Assembly: GCA_977017645.1 (NCBI GenBank)
Contig: OZ360242.1
Location: 46,252,001-46,316,000, forward strand
Length of the DNA stretch: 64,000 bases
Source of the DNA: Torpedo marmorata
Taxonomy: Eukaryota
Direction: 5' to 3'
Shown: positions 7,934 through 63,103 of the stretch, one piece after another
Position numbering within the stretch: the first letter of the stretch is position 1
How the letters are laid out: the number at the start of each line of letters is the position of its first letter
Made by a program: the position numbers and the translations under genes
The notes under the pieces: generated by a model
Database searches by the model: none
What the model saw: only the letters and a program-made list of their open reading frames with translations
What the model was told of the DNA's origin: nothing

Positions 7934-8254
7934 TTTGATTGAAATTATAGAGATTTATTGGAATATTAATGAAAGAGCACTTATTTTCCACCCCAAAACA
8001 TGGTCCCTATATCATTTATGATAAAACTAGTGATTACACATAGAATAACTTTTTATCTATATTATTGACATTCTTCCATAAGTTAACACCAACTATTCTT
8101 TGAATATATTTAGAATTAATTTTTGTTACTTTCCAGTTTGTGGGATCCTGTTGAATGGACAATTGTCTGCAAAATGATGTGTTGTACTTTAGAAATAACT
8201 TGCATTACATGTTCAACAAGTTCCATAGTATTTTGTTCATTGATTTCCTTGTAG

Positions 8255-8503
8255 CTGTCAGATGCCAAGAAGAAATTAAATGATGATGCCGTCACATTAG
8301 AGGGTCTTGAGGAAGGAAAGAAGAAACTTCAGAGGGAAATTGAAGCAATCACTCAGAACTTTGAAGAAAAGGCAGCAGCTTATGACAAGCTGGAGAAGAC
8401 AAAGAACAGGCTGCAGCAGGAGCTTGACGACCTTCTGGTGGACCTAGACAACCAGAGACAACTAGTTTCCAATCTGGAGAAGAAACAAAAGAAATTTGAT
8501 CAG
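8255..8503 (+). CDS. MYH11: Myosin-11 rod exon (LSDAKKK...KQKKFDQ)
   Basis: gtag|...|gtcaaa, 249 nt. Contains [16 protein letters not shown]. Confidence 0.94.
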
Positions 8504-22346: not shown

Positions 22347-24998
22347 GTAAATTTAGCCAATCCACAGTGGAGTCGGAACTCCTTAAACAAGTGGAGTCAC
22401 AGTGTCATCTTTGCAGCACTGATGATTTCCCAGGGCTTCCCTCCAAGCTGATTCTCCATCACTAACCCTTTGCTAGGTGTGACTGGGATATCTTGGTTAA
22501 TGGATATAAACTGGGGTTTTCCTGAACTTCCATCAAAATTAGAGTGGGTGGACTTTGAACAGCTGCAGGGAAATTCCTAGCCCGTAACTTTTCCTCTGTT
22601 AAAGTGGCAAGATGAAAATATTGATACTTATAAAAAGTTACATGAAAACATCATTTGAACAAGACAGGTAGGAAATGTATTTCAGGCCAAAAGATGTTAT
22701 TGGAGGGAAATGTGCAAGGGAGATCAACATACTTTCCCATGGATAAGGCTTATCCATTTGCTTTATAGGATAATGTAGATTTGGTTTGAATTTTATTTTG
22801 CCAGGAACATGCACAGGAATTTAAATTATACTCTGAGGGACATTTAAACTCATACATTAGACACACGTGTATATGTCCTTCATGATTATCAGAGGGGTTG
22901 TGCCTCTGCTGGTCCCCACCACTGCATGTACTTCAGCCTTAAAGCCACATGTCAGCAAAGGGCAGCTAACTTTCCCACTTTGGGAATCTCCTAGAATTGT
23001 TTCCTGGTACCAAGAGAAAGTGCTTGCCATTCATTTCAATGTCAACCTCCACTGCCACCTCTGCTTTTTGTGATGAAGCTATAGTGGGAAATGGAAGGCA
23101 GCTGTCAAATTTCAGCTCGGCTCCCTCACTGACTGAACAGTGAGATTCATGATGAGGGTTCAGATCGACAGCTAAATCAGGAGCAAAGTAATGAAAGATG
23201 ATGGACAACATCTCTGTTATACGTGACCACAGTCTCCAGCGACTGAAGGTGTGGGTTAGGACACAAGAAGAACAAAATAGTTCTGTGAGAGGAGACCTGA
23301 GCAACTAAACAAAAGCAACAAGAAATAAACAAATCCAATCCAAACTGAGAAAGTGGGGTCTAATAAAATATTTTATGTCGTGCTCACCGGAAACAAAAGA
23401 CATATATATGATAGTATTTACCTGGGGTTCAAGGCAGTCAGAGAAATTCTACCAAACGAAAAAAGATACCGGTATATCTGCTTGTTCCACACCCGAAACA
23501 TCCGCTTCCTTAAAAAATGTATAAATATTTATAAATGATTAATCTTTTTTTTTTATTTGTGCTATGAAGCTTTAATTGCATATGTATGAAAAATAATGGA
23601 ATAATGTTAAAATGGGGAGGAGAATAGTTTTAAGTATTTTGATCGTGAAATGTCATTCTAAAATGTTACAAAAAAGTCACTTGAGGAATAAGAAATACAG
23701 GGGGTCTCATCGTAGCAATTCTTTCCAATTGTTTATTATCTCATGTCAAAGAGATATGGGTGAGTGCCCACAGATAACATATACAACCACATGGGATGAA
23801 TATTAGCAATCCAATCCATTGGGAAAATGAAAGAAAACAGCTTCACTATTTTAATTGATTAATTATTAATTAATTGATAATTAATAATAAAATTGAGTCA
23901 CTCACAGGAATTTTATATGGGGAAAAGAAGAAAGGCAAGCAAATGAATCCCAGTTGTTATTTTCAGTCTATGATTGCTTTTGAAACACTATGCCTATAAT
24001 CAGGATGATCATACCAGTAAAAAGAATAGACCCCAAACTTGGTAGGTCACTGAAGACTGGCATGTCGTGACGTGATTAATTGCCCATTCCTAGTTGGCCT
24101 TAAGTGATCGGGAGACACTTTGAATTCACACAAAATATTGGCACGTCAGGCTGCTGTAAGAGACACAAGATTTAACCACAAATCCCAAAGATTAAACTTT
24201 CAGGTAGTCCCAAATATCTAAAATGAAAATTCATATTCCTGAGGACATTTATGTTCCAGATGTTTTTATTCAGTGACATTTCAAGATTCAAGATTCAATT
24301 TATTGTCATAGTAATAAAACAGTGTTATATTCCATGAAATTTCTTTTTGCCTGCTGCAAGGCAGACAGATTCGCCACCGGCAGAAATTGCCTAAGCACCT
24401 CTAACATTCCTTACAGTCAGAGAAAGAGAAACAAAAGAGAGTCCCCCCAGAGTCACCGAGTGTCCGTAGATTCGCCTCCAGCACCTCCGCAGCCACACAG
24501 AGTCCAGTCCAAACCATCGGCAATCTGAGATCCAGATCCGAACCTCCAACACGGTCAGGGTGCCCTCGGCACCCCTTCGCATCCTGATTACAGTCATTCC
24601 TACTGGTGCTATCTCAGTTTTTAAAAATCATTGGATTTATAATTTATTAGTCTAACAATCCTATACTAATCTAGTTCCATAACCATACTACTAGATACTG
24701 TAAAATAAGTTGCCATATGAAAACCTCATGGCTCAGGAATGAGGCACACACATTTACTCTGTGATCTGTGTAAAAATTCTGATAGCTTGGTGGAGATTCC
24801 ATTTTTCAGTTATCAATGCAAAATAATGATTGTTAGATAACATCTCTAATATGGAATTGCATCAATGATAGTAATTGGTTTAGTCAAGTTGAAATGTTCT
24901 GCACAACAATAATGGGGTGCGATTACCGTATTTGCTTTAAGAATTGTTTATAATGGGAATTGTATGTAACCATGAGGGAAATCTTGTCTTTATTACAG

Positions 24999-25031
24999 AG
25001 GTGCACATGAGCCTGCTCAATGAACATCCAG
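24999..25031 (+). CDS. MYH11: SM2-type alternative cassette exon (R-GAHEPAQ*, stop at 25021-25023)
   Basis: tcttgtctttattacag|A GGT GCA CAT GAG CCT GCT CAA TGA ACATCCAG|gtacct. Phase, position and the TGA-N5-CAG ending parallel the mammalian SM2 exon. Confidence 0.8.
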
Positions 25032-37462: not shown

Positions 37463-40400
37463 CAACGATGGATACATGCCCATTCTTTAGCAGATTTTGA
37501 CAGCAGGAAAACTTAGCAGAATCCAGTCCAGACGTTTCCAGAAAAGCCACAGCATACATCAGGAAGTGGATCCCCAAATTCTCATCACTAGGTACCAGTG
37601 CCAATTCAAGAAAGGTTGCTAGTTCTACCATGACCAGAAGTGGAACCTGAACCCTTTCTAATTTTGCAAACTTACTGCATTTATTCACAGGGCCACAGTG
37701 TGCCAAGACTATTGGAGCGACTGAAAAATCCCAAATGTTTAAAACATTGAAAGAATGCAAAATAATTCAGAATGGGGAATGGTAGCAACTTTATTTCAGT
37801 TGACAGGTTAAGAAATGCAGTTAGGTTACATACATTGCAGGATTACAAATTGGAAATGTCTGTTTTGAAAAATATACAGTGACTCAAATCTTCAACAGTG
37901 TACTGTACACATTACTTGTGAACCTTTACAAGTGATTTTGCAATGATGAAATATTGCATTCAATGGGTGAAGACAGGCATGTCAGAATTTACAGGCATGA
38001 AATCATTGGTACTTCCCTTCTAATACAGCAGTACAACAGCATCCCACAACATCTGTCCATATTGGGAAACCATTATGTATTGGGAAACCATTATGTACTA
38101 CCACGACAATGTTTGTCAATAACCAAGCATCACACCACCAATAATCTACAGGTTGTTCGTGATCCATTTTTGTTAATAGTTCAAATGGAAGAGGCACCAA
38201 TCACCAATGTAGCAGTAAATTTGGTCTAACACAGGCCTGATGTGGAAAATAGAAACACATCACAGTCAGTGATGGCTGGAGATGATAATTAAGGCACCAA
38301 GTTGCAGAAATTAAACACAGGCACTAGGTGCAAAGGTCTGGAAATGTTCTTCTCCAAGGCCATCCATTAATGAGTGCAAGGATAATCATGGATCCAAAAC
38401 TTTATGCAGATACAGAAACAAAATATTGGTGCATTCAGCAGATAAAGCACATAGATGTCATTAATCTTCGTTTATTTGTTCAGAGGCATAGTCCTACCCT
38501 CAGAAGTCCCTACCCAAGACATATCTATGGATTTACAAAGACATGCTGTCCCCCACATAAACCATTTTGCATTAGGCAAAAATACAAATACCAGTTTTGG
38601 CTCATGACAATTTGTCCCTTGCTCACACTTTCTTGCTATGGAGGAAGATCCTGTTTAGGTTTTCTTCCATTTCAATTGAGCTTTGGAATTCTAATCCTGC
38701 TCACCCTGCATGCAGCCACAAGCTTTGGTTAGTCAATTTTTTTGACCAGACAAAAAAAAACTTTTTGCAAGGCAATGGGCTTAACCTGGAAATCAACGTA
38801 GACACTCAAGGACAATCATTTACTAACACAGCCTCGGAACGTGCTTCCGAGTGCTACTATCACAGCTTTGTGGGTCTTGGCACCAACTATAGGATCTCAA
38901 AATTTAACAATCATTGATGAAAAAAAATTCTTCACCAAGGTTCATTCCTTAGAATTTATTTGCTTTTCGGTGGTATACAATTCAACAACCAAACCACATT
39001 GAACCTCAACCAATACTTCCGCAAGATCAATAAGGCACTGATCTTTAAGGCACAATCCATTCTATGCTCTAATTCATCTACATAGCATTTCATTATCAAG
39101 AACTTCACTGCTAATCCTTTTCAGCTAAAATAATTAGGATTCAATCTGTTAACTAACCAATTTTCTTAGTACATTTTCTAATGCATCAATTTGAAAATTC
39201 AAAACAATATTCCCTTAGGAACTATACAATGTTCTTTATTTAATGCCGCTTCCATCAAGTCAATGTTTGAACCAATTATCCAGTTAGAAACAGTAATGGA
39301 TGCGTCAGAGGACTGCACCAGTAGTGTATTAAATGCCAGTACAATGCTAAAGTCCTTGAAACTTGCTCAACTTTTAGTATTTGCTAATCATGAGAATTCA
39401 TTCATCAAAATCTCATGATCCATGTCCTTTCTATTCCTGTGCCCTCTGAGTGAAACAAAATAATAATTTGTTCAGTTTACAATAAATGAACCACGCTGCT
39501 GCATTTCAATTTTGTACACATTTCAGACAAGTTCTGCACAAAGCATTTTTCCACAGGTTTCCATTTAAAGCAATTAGAACAAATTTGGATTGCCTCAAGA
39601 GCTTATAAAATAGCATCTTGATGTACAGGCAACAGATTAAATATTTACAAAAGGCAAGAACAGATAGGTTGACTGCTCACATCATCGTGCACAAATCCTC
39701 AAGTTGAGAAAGATTTTACAGTACACAAATTGACAAATGAAAGTTACATGGGAATTAAACAATTATAAACCGATTGCAATGTTGTCAACCTTAGTTGAAC
39801 AAGACCAAGAGAATATACAGAATAGGTATATTATAGACTGGTGCATCATTGAATACAATTTTCTTGAAATAATTAAGGTAATATGGCATCCCCAAGTAGC
39901 ACACATCAAGTTTTGGGGAGAAAATAATAAATGTTACAATGTTTATTAGCACGTTTGCATTGAGCCAATATCTTGAGCCAACATCTTCAAATAAGCCAGA
40001 AGTTATGCAATTAATACTGAATAACGAACTTAGGACCTAATAACTTAAACTTAGAAGGCCAAGGTTCAAGCTACCAGTTATTTTGATCAAAACAAACATA
40101 AAAATGACAAGTAAAAAAATTCCCTTAGTGGCATTTCACCAATTAGCCAATTCCCCAATGTGACTGACAAATGCTACAATTAGTATAATGTAGCTCCAAA
40201 ACCAAATGTTTAGGCCAAAAGACCTTCAAAATTTTAACTAGCATCTTCCAATTATTTGTTTATATTTCCCCCTTTTTTTTTTTTTAAGATGAAACAGGGC
40301 CTAAATATAATTGCAAAATATGGGTCACACACCTTCAATATGAAAGAAAAATCTACTTTTAGCTTTTGAAAACTAAACTTCAATTTGCACCAGCAGAAAA

Positions 40401-40494
40401 GAAACTTTCCCATCACTAACTTCTTCACTTAAAGCAATAAGAGCCTGGTTATAAAAATATTAATTTAACACATCAAATTTAAAAATTACCATAC

Positions 40495-40588
40495 TCAGAG
40501 CAAGATTTTGACAACACCTTGTGGTGACACAGTTGCCTGCATGCAGACTTTTGAGGCAATCGTTCCAAACTCGAGTCTTTTGGCTAAT
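40495..40588 (-). CDS. NDE1: NDE1 KMLL-type terminal coding exon (LAKRLEFGTIASKVCMQATVSPQGVVKILL*)
   Basis: ttttcag| acceptor in phase 2. KRLEFG...QGVVK.LL parallels the mammalian NDE1-KMLL C-terminus and distinguishes NDE1 from NDEL1. Confidence 0.9.
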
Positions 40589-40949
40589 CTGAAAATGCAA
40601 GCAGAAAAAAAAAAATCAAATAATAGTTTCAGGAAATAAAATGAACCATTTCAGAAAGACATACAAACTGTTGATGCTTCAAAGAACAGACTGATTTGGA
40701 TGTCCCCAAGCTTTTCAGAGAAAATTTCCACAATTTGTCTGGACTGTACATTATGACCATTGTTTAATTACAATTGCTTTTTATTCTGCAAGTTGCAGGA
40801 TAGAAGATAACAACCTACATGGTTCCAAAATAGTTATGCATCAGGTAATATGCAACTCTCAACAACAAAGAATCATTTATTTGTTTACATTCCAAATTTA
40901 AAGATGGTACTTGTTAGTGATATTCAAACTATATACAAAAAAATGCCCC

Positions 40950-41540
40950 AGTCACACCATTTAATTCTACTTCCCAGACAGACATGCCTGTCCATGGCCT
41001 ACTATACTGCCAGGTTGACTCCACATGCAACTTTGAGGAACACCTTGTATTCAGACTTGGCAGTCTTCAACAGGACAGCAACACCATAGACGACTCATTT
41101 CTAGTAACCTCCCCACCCCCTTGTTTTCTCAATCCCTCTCCCCTGCTCTCATCTTTCTGGCCCCATTCCTCCTCTTGTTCTCTGCTTTCCCCTCACACAC
41201 TCTCTCCACCTTCCTGTCACCCACACCCTCACTCCAGCTCCCCACCCCATTCCTATGAGAGTGCATTTACCTCAGCCCTCTGCCTCTTCCCCATCGCCTC
41301 CTAGATGCTCACTTTCCCCCCTTCCCCATTTCTTCTCCCTCCTACCTGTATTCACCCATCACCTGCCAGCCCTCCCCATATTTATTTTCAAGATTCTGCC
41401 AGTTTCTTGCTATTCCTGTTGAATGGTTTTAGCCAGAAACATTGACCATCTATTGCCTTCCACAGATGCTGCCTGACCTGCAGAGTTCCTCCACCAATTT
41501 GTTGCTCCAGCTTTTCCAGCACCTGCAGTCTCTTGTTTAC
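40950..41540 (+). mobile_element. Penelope-like 3' remnant
   Basis: LEEHLVFRLGSLQ-like peptide, pyrimidine-rich stretch, gatgctgcctgacctgcagagttcctcc terminus. Confidence 0.65.
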
Positions 41541-43019
41541 CTACAAGCTACAAAAAGAATCTCAGGGTTGTATGTGATGTCATGTATGTACTCTGACCAT
41601 AAATCTGAAATCTGAAGCTTACAAGCAAATGGATTAAACCATCACTGCAAATTTTCCCTACTTGGAGAGAGCTCTTTCAGCTGATATGCAAAGGTGATGC
41701 TCCAGGTCAAGGGAAACCATTTTTCTGGAGACAAATCATTCCAGCATGCAGACAATTATCTATGGCAGCAACATTTATTCAACAGATAATAGCATTCTAA
41801 AGAAAGACAGGCCACAAGTGTACGTATGGCTTGATGTCATTGTAAAGCACTCTGTAAACAAAAACATTTAATTATGGTCACCAATGTATTGTATGAAACA
41901 CATGCAGCAGGATCTACAAATAAACCATCTGGGTCACTATTTCCTGTAATGCAAAGCCATCTGTGTTCATCTATGTTTATGTCAAGCAATGAGCTGAAAA
42001 GGTGTCAAATTCTACGAGAGATTTTTTATTCTGCACATCAGACTTTTTTGGTTGCAATTTGCAAATTCCATTTGAGCAAATTTCCATCATCTGATCTGCT
42101 GTAACTTTGGGTGGACGTGGGAAGGGGGAAACAAATCTTTGCGATATTGACCAACAGATTATCCGGAACAAGTCCACTGCTCTTCATGAAGGGCTCAAGC
42201 CCGAAACATTGGTTTTGTATCTTTAGCTTTGATTTATAAAGTACATTGTTTGACCTGCTGAGTTTCTCCAGCATTATGTTTTTACTTTTGTGTTTTACTC
42301 CTTTTTCTAATGGAATTATTTTTGCATTCAAGATACCAGATACACAATTTAAAAAAACTTTCATTTAGTGCAATCCCCTTCAAGCAATCCCCGTCAAGAG
42401 TTCTGCAGCATGCACACAGTCCAACTCATCCATGCCAACCAAGTGGTTACCTGAGCTGGTCCCAGTTTGGTCAACATTCCCCTTTCCTATCCATGTACCC
42501 ATTCAGACATCTTAAGCACTAATTGTACACATCTCTAGACATTCCCTAGACCTTCTCAGCTGCTTTATATCCACTAAAATGGCAGAGTACACAAACTGGC
42601 TACATATTCTAATGACCAAGTACCGGTAATTTAAGTGAAACCGAAATTGAGAAACCATAGCAAAGAAACCAGTGATAATATCCTGACTCTTCCATTTCAA
42701 CCTTAGAGCACAGGCAGGATTCAGTTTGAAGTCTCATCTGAAAGATTCCACTACCAACCTTCCAATTTTGCTTTGAATTTTTTTAATCCAGTCTCTGCAG
42801 CAGGATCACAACATTCCAACTCCGATAAGAGCAACTAACAAACATAGCTGAAAATACAACCTTGCCTGCCCACAAAGAACTGGACTGAAGAAACTTGATT
42901 TAAAAATCTTGGAAACAAGACTCAATCTGGCTAAACTTCCATAACATTTTCAAAGTGTGCAGAAGCAATCATAACTTATCTCAAAATAATGTAGGTCCGT
43001 TAAAATAAGTTTTACTGAC

Positions 43020-43174
43020 CCTTTGTCATATTGGGGTAGATTAGCATTTGACATCCGGTTATCATTGTTGTCCTTGACTGCATGGTTTCTATTCTGAGCA
43101 GTTGACAGAGTTCCACGGTTTAGAGACTGATCCCAGGCAAAATTGCTATAGGATGCAAGCTTCGACTCCAAGGC
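43020..43174 (-). CDS. NDE1: NDE1 exon (ALESKLASYSNF...QYDKG)
   Basis: tacag|...|gtcagt, 155 nt, ends in phase 2. Confidence 0.9.
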
Positions 43175-43351
43175 CTGTATAAAAATAAAATCAAACTCCA
43201 CATTTAGAAATGAAATGCCCAGAGGAAATTAATAACAACCAAATTCCCAATTTGTTTCAGACTTTCTTTACATCATTGATTTTGTCAAGTGGTTACTCAA
43301 CCACCACCTTTCACGCATTACATCCTTCCCTTTTTATTTTTATTTTTTGAA

Positions 43352-43550
43352 AACAGCGCCAGCGAACCAGGTTCAAATCCAACGCTGTCTGTAAGGAGTT
43401 TGTACGGTCTCCCCGTGTCTGCATGAGATTCCTCTGGGTGCTCCAGTTTCCTCCCACATTCCAAAGACATATGTGGCTAGTAGGTGATTGGTCACATGGG
43501 TGTATTTGGGGAGCACAGGCTCATGGGCCAGAAGTGCTGTATCTCCAAAT
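43352..43550 (+). mobile_element. 5'-truncated V-SINE
   Basis: Similar to the other copies. Confidence 0.7.
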
Positions 43551-46589: not shown

Positions 46590-49500
46590 CGAACGAGGAG
46601 TAGGGATGAGGTCCTGAAGAGGGAGTATAGGGAGTTAGGAAAGAGGTTAAAAAGCAGGACCTCAAGGGTGGTAATCTCAGGATTGCTGCCTGTGCCACGC
46701 GCCAGAGAGGGTAGGAACAGGAAGTTGTGGCAGATGAATGCGTGGCTGACGAGTTGGGGCAGGGGTTCAGATTTCTGGATCTGGGGAAGGTCTGACCTGT
46801 ACAAAAAGGACGGGCTGCACCTGAACTGGAAAGGGACCAATATCCTGGCGGGCAGCTTTGCTGGAGCTGTTGGGGAGGGTTTAAACTAGTTTGGCAGGGG
46901 GGTTGGAATCAGAATGTGAGTGCAGAGATTATGGTAGAAGGACAAAAGCATGATGCTATGTGTTCTGAGTTGGTGAGGAAGGACAGGCAGGGGACAAAAC
47001 ATAAATGCAACCAGTTAGAGGGGTTGAAATGTGTCTATTTCAACGTTAGGAGTATTAGGAATAAAGAGGATGAACTTAGTGCATGGATCAGTACGTGGAA
47101 CTACAATGTTGTGGCCGTTACTGAAACTTGGCTGGAGGAAGGGCAGGATTGGCTGATGCAGGTATCGGGGTTTAGGTGTTTTAAAAGGAATAGGATGGGA
47201 GGTAGGAGAGGAGGATGAGTAGAGCTATCACTGTGCTGGGAGTAATCTTTTGGCCCCCAAATAGCCCTCGGGACACCGAGGAGCAGATAAGGTGGCAGAT
47301 TTTGGAATGGTGCAGGAAATACAGTGTTGTAGTTATGGGTGATTTCAACTTCCCTAATATTGACTGGCACCTCCTGACTGCAAGAGGGATAGATGGGGCT
47401 GAATTTGTCAGGTGTGTTCAGGAAGGGTTCCTGACACAGTATGTGGACCGGCCAACGAGAGGAGAGGCCATACTCGATCTAGTTCTGGGTAATGAACCTG
47501 GTCAGGTGGCGGACCTCTCGGTGGGGGAGCATTTTGGTGAGAGCAACCACAACTCCCTTAGCTTCAGCATAGCTATGGAAAAGGATAAAGTGCTTAACTG
47601 GGGAAGGGCTAATTATGAAGGGATGAGGCAGGAATTAGCGAGAGTAAATTGGAAACAGATGTTCAAACGTGAAAGCACAGAAGTAATGTGGAGAAAGTTT
47701 AGGGACCACGTGTGCTGGGTTCAGGATAGGTTTGTCCCACTGGGACAAGGAAAAGATGATAGGAAAAGGGAACCGTGGCTGACGAAACAGGTGAGGCAAC
47801 TAGTCAAGAGGAAGAAGGAAGCATATGTTAGCTATAAGAAGCAGGAAGGGCTCATGAGAAATATATGGTAGCCAAGAAGGAGCTTAAGAAAGGACTAAGG
47901 AGAGCTTGAAGGAGGCATGAGAAGGCCTTGGCATGTAGGATTAAGGAGAACCCCAAGGTGTTCTATGTGTATGTGAAGAACAGAAGGATGACGAGAATGA
48001 AGGTGGGGCCGCTAAAGGTTAAAGGAGGCAACATGTGCCTGAAGGCAGAGGAGGTTGGGGCGGTGCTTGATCAGGGTGAGGTCAAAATAGAACAAGCCTG
48101 TGTGCTAGACAATGTGGAGATTAAGGAAGAGGAAGCGTTGGATCTTTTTAAAAACATCAAGACTGATAAGTCACCGGGGCTGGACGCGATATACCCCAGG
48201 TTGCTGTGGGAAGTGAGAGAAGAGATAAGATAGCTGGGGCAGTAGCTATGATCTTTGAATCCTCTTTGGCCGCAGGGGAGGTGCCGGAAGATTGGAGAAT
48301 GGCAAATGTAGTCCCCTTGTTTAAAAAAGGTAATAGGGAGAATCCTGGGAATTGTAGACCGGTGAGTCTTACGTCAGTGGTGTGCAAACTATTGGAGAGG
48401 ATTCTTAAGGATAGGATCTATGAGCATTTGGAGAAGTACAGTCTACTCAAGGATAGTCAGCATGGCTTTGTGAAGGGAAGGTCGTGCCTCACGAACCTAA
48501 TTGAGTTTTTTGAGGAGGTAACAAAAGAAATTGATGAGGGTAGGGCGGTAGATGTGGTCTACATGGATTTTAGCAAGGCATTTGACAAGGTCCCCCACGA
48601 GAGACTCATCCAGAAAGTCATGAGGCATGGGATCAGTGGAACCTTGGCTGGATGGATAAAAAATTGGCTTGCAGGAAGAAAGCAGAGAGGAGTAATGGAA
48701 GGAAAGTATTCTGCCTGGAGGTCAGTGACTAGTGGAGTGCCGCAAGGATCTGTTCTGGGACCCTTGCTCTTTGTGATTTTTATAAATGACCTGGATGAAG
48801 AGGCGGAAGGATGGGTCAGTAAGTTTGCGGATGACACGAAGGTTGGAGGAGTTGTGGATGGAGCTGAAGGTTGTCGAAGGTTACAAGAGAATATAAACAG
48901 GATGCAGAGTTAGGCAGAAAAGTGGCAGATGGTGTTCAATCCGGATAAGTATGAGGTGATGCATTTTGGAAGGACAAACCAGAAGGCTGAGTACAGGGTT
49001 AATGGTCGGTTACTTAAGAGTGCGGATGAACAGAGGGACCTTGGGGTTCAAATCCATACATCCCTCAAGGTCAACGCATGTGTTGATAGAATAGTTAAGA
49101 AGGCCTATGGGATGCTGGGCTTCATTAATAGGGGGATTGAGTTCAGGAGTAGAGAGGTCATGTTGCAACTCTACAAATCTCTGGTAAGACCACACAGAGT
49201 ATTGTGTTCAGTTCTGGTCACCTCATTATACGAAGGATGTGGAAGCTATGGAGAGGGTGCAGAGGAGATTTACCAGGATGTGGCCTGGATTGGAAAACAA
49301 ATCTTATGAGGCAAGGTTAGCAGAGCTGGGACCTTTCTCTTTGGAGTGTAGGAGGATGAGAGGAGACTTGATAGAGGTCTACAAGATTATGAGAGGCACC
49401 TGTTTCCCATGGCAGGAATAACAAATAGCAGAGGACATATGAACAAAGTTAAGGGAGGGAAGTTTAGGGGAGACATCAGGGGTAAGTTTTTTTTTTTTTG

Positions 49501-61900: not shown

Positions 61901-62720
61901 ATAACGACACTTTACGTTCAACTCCATTCCTATATAACCCTGTAAAATCTCTACTCTCCCGAAGAGCAATAGCAAAGGGTTCTAATACCAGGTCAAAAAG
62001 TAAAGGGCTTAAAACACAACCTTGACAAGTACCCCGATAAAGCCTTAAAAGGTTTGATTGTTGTAAATTAGTACAAATTGAGGCAGTAGGACATGAATAT
62101 AATAATTTAATCCATTTAATAAAATCTGGTTCAAAATTAAATTTTTCTAAACTGACAAATAGATAGTCCCATTCTACCCGATCAAAAGCCTTCTCGGCAT
62201 CTAATGAAAGCACACATTCTGTGGCAGGAGTAGAGGGTAAATATAAGATATTTAATAATCGATGTATGTTAAAATATGAATAACGATTCTTAATAAAACC
62301 AGTTTGGTCCTCAGGAGACGATCAATGGTAAAATATTCTCTAATCTATGGGCCAAGATTTTAGACAAAATCTTCATGTCCACATTGAGTAAGGAAATAGG
62401 CCTATATGATGCACATTCCAGTAGGGTCCTTCCCTCTTTTCAAAATAAGAGATATACAAGCCTCATTAAAAGATAAATGAAGCTTCCCATTTTTAAATGA
62501 ATCACCAATCACTGAGCATAAATGAGGTACAAGCCATTTGGAGAAAGATTTATAAAATTCAGCAGAATATCCATCTGGTCCTGGAGATTTACCCGATTGT
62601 ATGGAAGAAATTGCTGGTAATATTTCCTCATGAGAAATAGGAGCCTCCAAACTTGTACGTCTATTCTGGGAAAGCGTATACCACAAAAATCTAATCCTAC
62701 TTTCAGCTCAGAGCAATGAA
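58972..62720 (-). mobile_element. L1/Tx1-clade LINE (RT to poly(A) end), split by an LTR-like insertion
   Basis: [41 protein letters not shown] and MFWACP motifs; polyA signal and T-run at about 58975. Confidence 0.9.
59755..60334. mobile_element. Solo-LTR-like repeat, copy 2 (contains N gap 60048-60226)
   Basis: tgttac...attaca termini; L1 coding sequence resumes on both sides; homologous to 32707-33456. Confidence 0.6.
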
Positions 62721-62734
62721 CCAAAAACATTTCA

Positions 62735-63103
62735 AAGGGGATGTCCTAAATGAATACTTTGCTTTAGTATTCACAAGAGAAAAGGAATTTGATCAGGGCA
62801 AGGTTGGAATAGAACAGGCTTGTGTGCTGGACAATGTGGAGATTAAGGAAGAGGAAGTGTTGGATCTCCTTAAAAACCAAGATTGATAAGTCCCCAGGGC
62901 CAGACACGATATACCCCAGGTTACTGTGGGAAGTGAGAGAAGAGAAAGCTGGGGCAGTAGCTATGATCTTTGAATCCTCTTTGGCCGCAGGGGAAGTGCC
63001 AGAGGATTGGAGAATGGCAAATGTAGTCCCCTTGTTTAAAAAAGGTAATAGGGAGAATCCTGGGAATTATGTCAGTGGTGTGCAAACTATTGGAGAGGAT
63101 TCT
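62735..63103 (+). mobile_element. CR1 fragment of the same family as 48060-48400
   Basis: DKSPGPD.IYPRLL...VPEDWRMANVVPLFKKG. Confidence 0.88.

What the first reader, a model, noticed from the sequence alone, without database searches (positions are those of the whole stretch)
8380..8500. Intact antisense NDE1 'SSSC'-type terminal exon inside a MYH11 coding exon
Seen: the minus strand reads ctgatcaaatttcttttgtttcttctccag|ATTGGAAACT..., a strong 3' splice site with AG at 8475-8474. Joined to the phase-2 donor of the NDE1 exon at 43020, it gives ...[33 protein letters not shown]. Recalled: the human NDE1-SSSC isoform ends LDTSCRWLSKSTTRSSSSC and is encoded antisense to the equivalent MYH11 exon. 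Inference: the sense/antisense dual-coding overlap, or a latent pre-adapted form of it, already exists in this lineage. One synonymous myosin codon (ctg cag rather than ctt cag) removes the stop and adds 11 residues. Caveat: the myosin LEKKQKKF codons generate the pyrimidine tract automatically, so its presence does not prove use.
Basis: partly seen in the sequence, partly recalled or inferred. Interest (0 to 1): 0.7.

Follow-up and report, generated by a model that had tools for sequence, protein, structure and literature searches.

The report
Latent NDE1 exon printed by myosin
In this ray genome a myosin exon, read backwards, holds a strong splice acceptor and a peptide like the tail of human NDE1, but the myosin's own amino acids produce both, and the ray's NDE1 RNA splices to the ordinary last exon, so the site is likely unused.

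Summary
The acceptor outscores all 1,933 minus-strand AGs between 40588 and 8473. None of this exceeds what myosin coding gives. The antisense frame shares wobble positions with the myosin frame. In 20,000 synonymous recodings the 17/20 pyrimidine tract appears every time, identity averages 14.2/19 (P=0.42), and an acceptor this strong appears in 14%. The MYH10 and MYH9-like paralogues carry the same site, slightly weaker. Contigs join 43020 to 40588 in 4 of 4 runs, and 0 of 59 cartilaginous-fish NDE1 sequences end in an SSSC-type tail. The 43020-8473 junction was not tested directly, so rare use is not excluded. Verdict: a latent by-product, as in mouse and chicken. Useful corollary: the 'human-linked' exon's signals and peptide likely predate mammals, so the mammalian novelty would be read-through and exon skipping.

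The parts
8255..8503 (+). MYH11 coding exon (83 codons, coiled-coil rod); the template of the antisense feature
   Evidence: AG/GT borders; best PDB matches are Myosin-11; joins in frame with 16 other exons
8474..8503 (-). Latent 3' splice signal: branch-point-like CTGAT (A at 8500; consensus recalled), 17/20 pyrimidine tract, CAG. It is the reverse complement of the myosin codons for [10 protein letters not shown]
8380..8473 (-). Latent SSSC-like open frame, 30 residues plus stop, 15/19 identical to the mammalian SSSC tail; shares wobble positions with the myosin frame
43020..43174 (-). NDE1 penultimate coding exon (human exon 8 equivalent) with phase-2 donor at 43020
   Evidence: covered by contigs in 4 of 4 runs
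40495..40588 (-). Coding part of the ancestral KMLL/8T-type NDE1 last exon (ends VVKILL); the exon seen spliced to 43020
   Evidence: joint 40588-43020 with GT..AG ends in 4 of 4 runs
37773..40494 (-). NDE1 3' UTR with AATAAA at 39947, 38960, 38476 and 37795
   Evidence: one X1 contig covers 37773-40588 joined to 43020; hexamers
29031..29971 (+). MYH11 last exon (SM1-type tail and 3' UTR), tail-to-tail with NDE1, about 7.8 kb from the covered NDE1 UTR
   Evidence: X1 contig record 1

Best explanation
The feature is a likely unused (latent) antisense acceptor and reading frame that the conserved MYH11 protein sequence produces on the opposite strand, while this ray's NDE1 splices from 43020 to its ancestral last exon at 40588. 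Mechanism. Shown: the antisense codons read bases 2 and 1 of one myosin codon plus the wobble base of the previous one, so the myosin residue fixes or nearly fixes the antisense residue (Asp/Glu give Ser, Val gives Thr). The purine-rich E-K-K-Q-K-K codons give the pyrimidine tract, a CTN Leu codon gives the AG, and D-Q gives the branch-point-like motif. Shown: contigs splice to 40588. Inferred: cleavage at poly(A) signals in the 40588 exon's UTR ends most transcripts about 29 kb before 8473, so the site is rarely if ever transcribed on that strand. Inferred: some placental mammals later gained use of the ready-made exon through read-through and skipping of 8T.
For: Synonymous null, 20,000 recodings per gene with gene-specific codon use: tract 17/20 in 100%, P(AG and score >= observed)=0.14, identity 14.2+-1.3 against 15 observed (P=0.42), P(frame >= 30 aa)=0.27. 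The same position is the best antisense acceptor among 16 tail exons in each of three paralogues (10.46, 8.40, 8.18; real median 3.7), and 22 of 48 tail exons hold an antisense AG at or above the real median. The MYH9-like gene gives a 30-residue open frame with the same stop. The KMLL-type exon is intact, 90% identical to Narcine. The joint 43020-40588 is in 4 of 4 runs from two studies, one contig each, depths 14.5, 1620, 179 and 118. 0 of 59 cartilaginous-fish NDE1 sequences (46 named, 23 species; 13 unnamed) have the tail: 39 KMLL-type, 7 KMLL exon with inner donor, 11 with another tail, 2 read-through. Papers: mouse never uses exon 9, yet its exon 9 sequence splices in a human minigene, and chicken cells behave like mouse (PMC5339911, parts 1-2 of 4 read). 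No non-mammal among 19 assessed uses it (PMC7775536, section 12 part 2). No overlap in mouse or chicken (PMC2528163, passage).
Against: The site is very strong: best of 1,933 AGs in the interval, and it scores above the leave-one-out score of the used 40588 acceptor (10.46 against 6.72). Of the three paralogues only MYH11, the NDE1 neighbour, has CAG and the top identity. The paralogue beside NDEL1 (MYH10) has AAG and a stop after 4 residues. The junction was not tested: 8473 lay outside the stretch laid, only 24 of 9,698 loose ends and 15 of 2,551 joints were shown, and contigs drop rare variants. Protein records are mostly predicted annotations and can miss minor isoforms. One platypus UniRef record carries an SSSC-like tail lacking one residue (P0218); I read it as a homology-projected model, which is inference.
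Confidence: 0.85

Rival explanations
1. Leaky minor isoform: rare read-through past the NDE1 poly(A) signals lets the strong 8473 acceptor capture the 43020 donor at low frequency, with no selected function.
For: The acceptor outranks every minus-strand AG between 40588 and 8473. The NDE1 3' end is loosely spliced in cartilaginous fishes: inner-donor and alternative tails in 20 of 59 sequences. Contigs drop rare variants.
Against: It needs 29 kb more transcription, past at least 14 AATAAA/ATTAAA hexamers between 37.7 and 29.9 kb and head-on through MYH11. No record among 59 has it, although annotation did capture other minor tails.
Confidence: 0.12
2. Ancient functional dual coding: the SSSC-type exon has been used and selected since the jawed-vertebrate ancestor, and was lost or is unannotated in most lineages.
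For: MYH11 alone has CAG, an open frame and 15/19 identity, while the paralogue beside NDEL1 does not. The three residues needed for proteasome binding in human (318-320, PMC6249811 passages) have near-equivalents here.
Against: No feature exceeds the synonymous null, and those three residues are fixed or nearly fixed by myosin S-V-L (table). The stop that makes the SSSC end is absent. 0 of 59 cartilaginous-fish sequences have the tail, and only 3 of 253 NDE1-search sequences overall: squirrel, an unnamed mammal-like one, and a platypus model. Papers call the isoform recent.
Confidence: 0.03

Closest known systems
Human NDE1 exon 9/10 (NDE1-SSSC isoform) antisense to MYH11 (PMC5339911, PMC7775536, PMC2631193, PMC6249811)
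   Same: Same gene pair, tail-to-tail; phase-2 donor after D-K-G; 15 of 19 residues identical to the tail. That the acceptor is at the equivalent myosin position is inferred from the peptide match; human DNA was not seen.
   Different: No use shown here; the frame runs 11 residues past SSSC; the KMLL-type exon is the one seen spliced; the covered NDE1 and MYH11 3' ends do not overlap.
Mouse and chicken 'exon 9' sequence, present but unused (PMC5339911)
   Same: The species uses 8T/KMLL as last exon, and the antisense sequence persists inside MYH11.
   Different: Mouse exon 9 was tested in a minigene; the ray site has not been tested. It extends the latent site to cartilaginous fish and to the MYH10 and MYH9-like paralogues.
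Antisense shadow frames and overprinting in the wobble-sharing frame; Alu antisense exonisation as a functional analogue (both recalled, not from a call)
   Same: Splice signals or a frame arise as a by-product of the other strand's sequence and can later be recruited.
   Different: The template is a conserved coding exon, not a repeat, so the latent signal is kept by selection on the myosin protein.

Membership tests
Used NDE1-SSSC terminal exon | NDE1 and MYH11 adjacent, tail-to-tail | tested here: met
Used NDE1-SSSC terminal exon | Intact in-phase acceptor antisense to the MYH11 rod exon | tested here: met
Used NDE1-SSSC terminal exon | Protein ends in SSSC (19-residue tail, stop after Cys) | tested here: not met
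   frame runs 30 residues; human tail as printed in PMC5339911
Used NDE1-SSSC terminal exon | Exon 8 spliced to this acceptor, skipping 8T | tested here: inconclusive
   only the 43020-40588 joint is listed, in 4 of 4 runs; 8473 was outside the stretch, tables were cut, and contigs drop rare forms; 0 of 59 protein records
Used NDE1-SSSC terminal exon | Extra sequence constraint from dual coding | tested here: inconclusive
   no excess over the synonymous null in one genome; no cross-species DNA was available for a synonymous-rate test
Used NDE1-SSSC terminal exon | Own 3' UTR and poly(A) site; proteasome binding by the tail | not testable with these tools
   AATAAA at 7959 is at background density, 1.1 per kb; binding needs an experiment
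KMLL/8T-type NDE1 (mouse, chicken and fish pattern) | Exon 8 spliced to a KRLEFG...VVK[MI]LL last exon | tested here: met

The most novel reading that the evidence does not exclude
Some ray tissue, such as brain, splices NDE1 across 34.5 kb into the MYH11 exon, so sense/antisense dual coding at this locus dates from the jawed-vertebrate ancestor instead of being a gyrencephalic-mammal novelty. A milder reading is much more likely (about 0.9, interest about 0.35): the whole 'human-linked' exon, including the residues tied to proteasome binding, was pre-printed by myosin II codons before the MYH9/10/11 duplications.
Probability: 0.1. Interest if true: 0.6.

Novelty: already known. Interest (0 to 1): 0.22.

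Why it matters
If the exon were used in a ray, the published link between this exon and folded mammalian cortex (PMC7775536) would need rethinking. The supported result is smaller. The SSSC tail and its splice signals are dictated by myosin, so their sequence conservation is no evidence of selection on NDE1, and patchy use among mammals could reflect repeated recruitment of one standing site through changes in poly(A) choice and 8T skipping (inference). It also warns that homology-based annotation can place this tail in any vertebrate. I did not find the codon-level account in print in three searches aimed at it or in the passages read; I read only parts of those papers and no figures or supplements.

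Tried and rejected
Sequencing runs: no holder on record as RNA was listed; 5 runs of Logan contigs marked 'RNA?', no raw reads. No reads were laid on the 8473 region, so the junction stays untested from that side. Where contigs stop (X1 at 37773, 17 bases past the AATAAA at 37795-37790; X4 at 37925; X5 at 37966) and the low cover at 30.5-32.4 kb are not counted as evidence, because contigs cannot show ends and no DNA run was laid. A search with the last 40 residues of a squirrel SSSC isoform found 2 proteins among 4 candidates, the query itself and one unnamed mammal-like sequence; it sees cluster representatives only and is weak. The 30-residue ray peptide could not be searched on its own. 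The shark-type alternative tail had no convincing match in the window (best ungapped score 31). The PDB search confirmed gene identity, but the relevant bird and human alignments were cut from the output. AATAAA at 7959 was rejected as support (background density). Earlier scan findings: none. Paper search NDE1+MYH11+shark gave 2 irrelevant listings. PMC5696523 passages did not cover the wobble-sharing frame. Rows dropped before the 253 count: 5 of 258 (the query peptide and 4 unrelated proteins under 140 aa). The protein sample is the best 120 of 1,390 hits plus members of 25 clusters (turtle cluster 15 of 34), and is biased toward KMLL-type ends because the query had one.

Full report
Setting. 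The window holds the 3' part of MYH11 on the plus strand (17 exons from 1115 to 29169 that join into an open 933-residue tail; best PDB matches Myosin-11) and the 3' part of NDE1 on the minus strand (six exons, 58492 to 40588). The closest named NDE1 is from the electric ray Narcine bancroftii, 90% over the exon queried, so the genome is likely a ray's (inference).

Observation. It matches the SSSC tail at 15 of 19 positions (the reference was a squirrel record whose tail equals the human tail printed in PMC5339911). The site is strong. With a matrix from 56 real acceptors of MYH11, its two paralogues and NDE1 it scores 10.46 against a real median of 3.7; 2 of 56 real sites score higher and 0 of 1,933 minus-strand AGs between 40588 and 8473 do. 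The matrix is small and my own.

A scan of 572 candidate acceptors downstream of the donor found, 2.4 kb away at 40588, the ancestral KMLL/8T-type last exon. It is 90% identical to Narcine's and is followed by a UTR with several AATAAA. Laying four runs of contigs on 24000-43400 showed the joint 43020-40588 with GT..AG ends in all four, from two studies. X1 differs at 23 letters (plus 47 gaps) over 2,811 in this exon, so it is the same or a very close species; X2, X4 and X5 are a relative. The runs are only guessed to be RNA, but an exact intron skip indicates spliced RNA, and the own-genome search with another NDE1 exon found only NDE1 and one paralogue, no processed copy. No joint or loose end at 43020 leading elsewhere was listed. 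However, 8473 lay outside the stretch, only 15 of 2,551 joints and 24 of 9,698 loose ends were shown, and contigs drop rare forms. So the main splice is shown and the absence of the SSSC splice is not.

Why the sequence looks like an exon. The antisense codons are built from bases 2 and 1 of one myosin codon plus base 3 of the one before. The two frames therefore share their wobble positions, and each myosin residue allows one to four antisense residues (table). Holding the myosin protein fixed and redrawing codons 20,000 times from the gene's own usage gave: the 17/20 tract every time, an AG in 72%, CAG in 33%, an acceptor at least as strong in 14%, identity to the SSSC tail of 14.2+-1.3 (15 observed, P=0.42) and an open frame of 30 or more in 27%. 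One of the four differences from the mammalian tail (T against R) cannot be reached by synonymous change and must reflect a myosin residue difference.

Paralogues. I recovered 16 of 16 tail exons from each of two paralogues. One lies tail-to-tail with an NDE1 paralogue, which fits MYH10 beside NDEL1 (names from recalled synteny); the other is MYH9-like (recalled; MYH14 not excluded). In both, the same position is the best antisense acceptor of all 16 exons (8.40 and 8.18, with AAG). The MYH9-like one reads 30 residues to the same stop, and the MYH10 one stops after 4. Across the three genes 22 of 48 exons hold an antisense AG at or above the real median.

Protein records. Of 59 cartilaginous-fish NDE1 sequences (46 named from 23 species, 13 unnamed), none has an SSSC-type tail, while other minor tails are recorded: 39 KMLL-type, 7 with an inner donor, 11 with a shark-type alternative tail, 2 read-through. 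Among all 253 sequences of 140 residues or more, 3 match: a squirrel, an unnamed mammal-like one, and a platypus UniRef model with one residue missing. The sample is biased toward KMLL ends and rests largely on predicted annotation.

Literature. PMC5339911 (parts 1-2 of 4 read): human mostly skips 8T and uses exon 9; mouse never uses exon 9, though its sequence works in a chimeric minigene; chicken cells resemble mouse (data not shown). PMC7775536 (passages and section 12 part 2): none of the non-mammals among 90 species uses the exon, 25.4% of 71 mammals do, and the authors note limits of transcript data; the species list in its figure was not visible. PMC6249811 (passages): the isoform is recent, and residues 318-320 are needed for proteasome binding. 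PMC2631193 (passages) names the isoforms. PMC2528163 (one passage): the overlap is recent and the MYH9 paralogous exon is complementary too. No supplements were read.

Verdict. The latent form is supported and explained by myosin coding. Use is unsupported, and untested at low levels. It would work like mouse or chicken exon 9, competent but silent, and should not be filed as an SSSC exon. Interest 0.22.

Noticed in passing
window 24999-25032 (+): A 34-nt exon with AG/GT borders between the last two MYH11 exons gives a short stop-ended tail, like the mammalian SM2 isoform (SM2 recalled). Contigs of two relative-species runs start at 25003 and run on to about 27 kb, which may be an intron-retaining SM2 end.
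   Followed up: partly
window 40517 donor to 39445 acceptor (-), approximate: An inner donor in the KMLL-type exon and an acceptor inside the 3' UTR match the alternative tail annotated in 6 Narcine isoforms. This joint was not among those listed.
   Followed up: partly
L003 631-2143 (G000:C41 near 21,385,578): Intronless copy of nine consecutive MYH10 exons, 93-98% identical, with truncations and stops (longest open stretch 301 residues): a processed pseudogene.
   Followed up: partly
P0037, P0038, P0151, P0154, P0156 and others: Eleven shark NDE1 sequences share a conserved alternative last exon starting xQHKARK, with no convincing match in this window; its position relative to MYH11 is unknown.
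   Followed up: partly
G000:C53:43,525,280 (L014): An NDE1 paralogue lies tail-to-tail with the MYH10-like gene, so the nudE/myosin pair predates the duplication.
   Followed up: partly
window 40495-40484 (-): Two GT donor-like sites lie at and 5 bases after the KMLL-type stop; in human a donor 32 bases after this stop joins 8T to exon 9 (PMC5339911). No use was listed.
   Followed up: no
window 47206-48230 and 62695-62883 (+): Long frames resembling endonuclease/reverse-transcriptase retroelement pieces (recalled resemblance) inside NDE1 introns or upstream.
   Followed up: no
L011 (G000:C68:48,829,136) and L012 (G000:C79:11,910,736): More distant myosin-tail exon matches (54% and 49%), perhaps MYH14-like or other myosins.
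   Followed up: no
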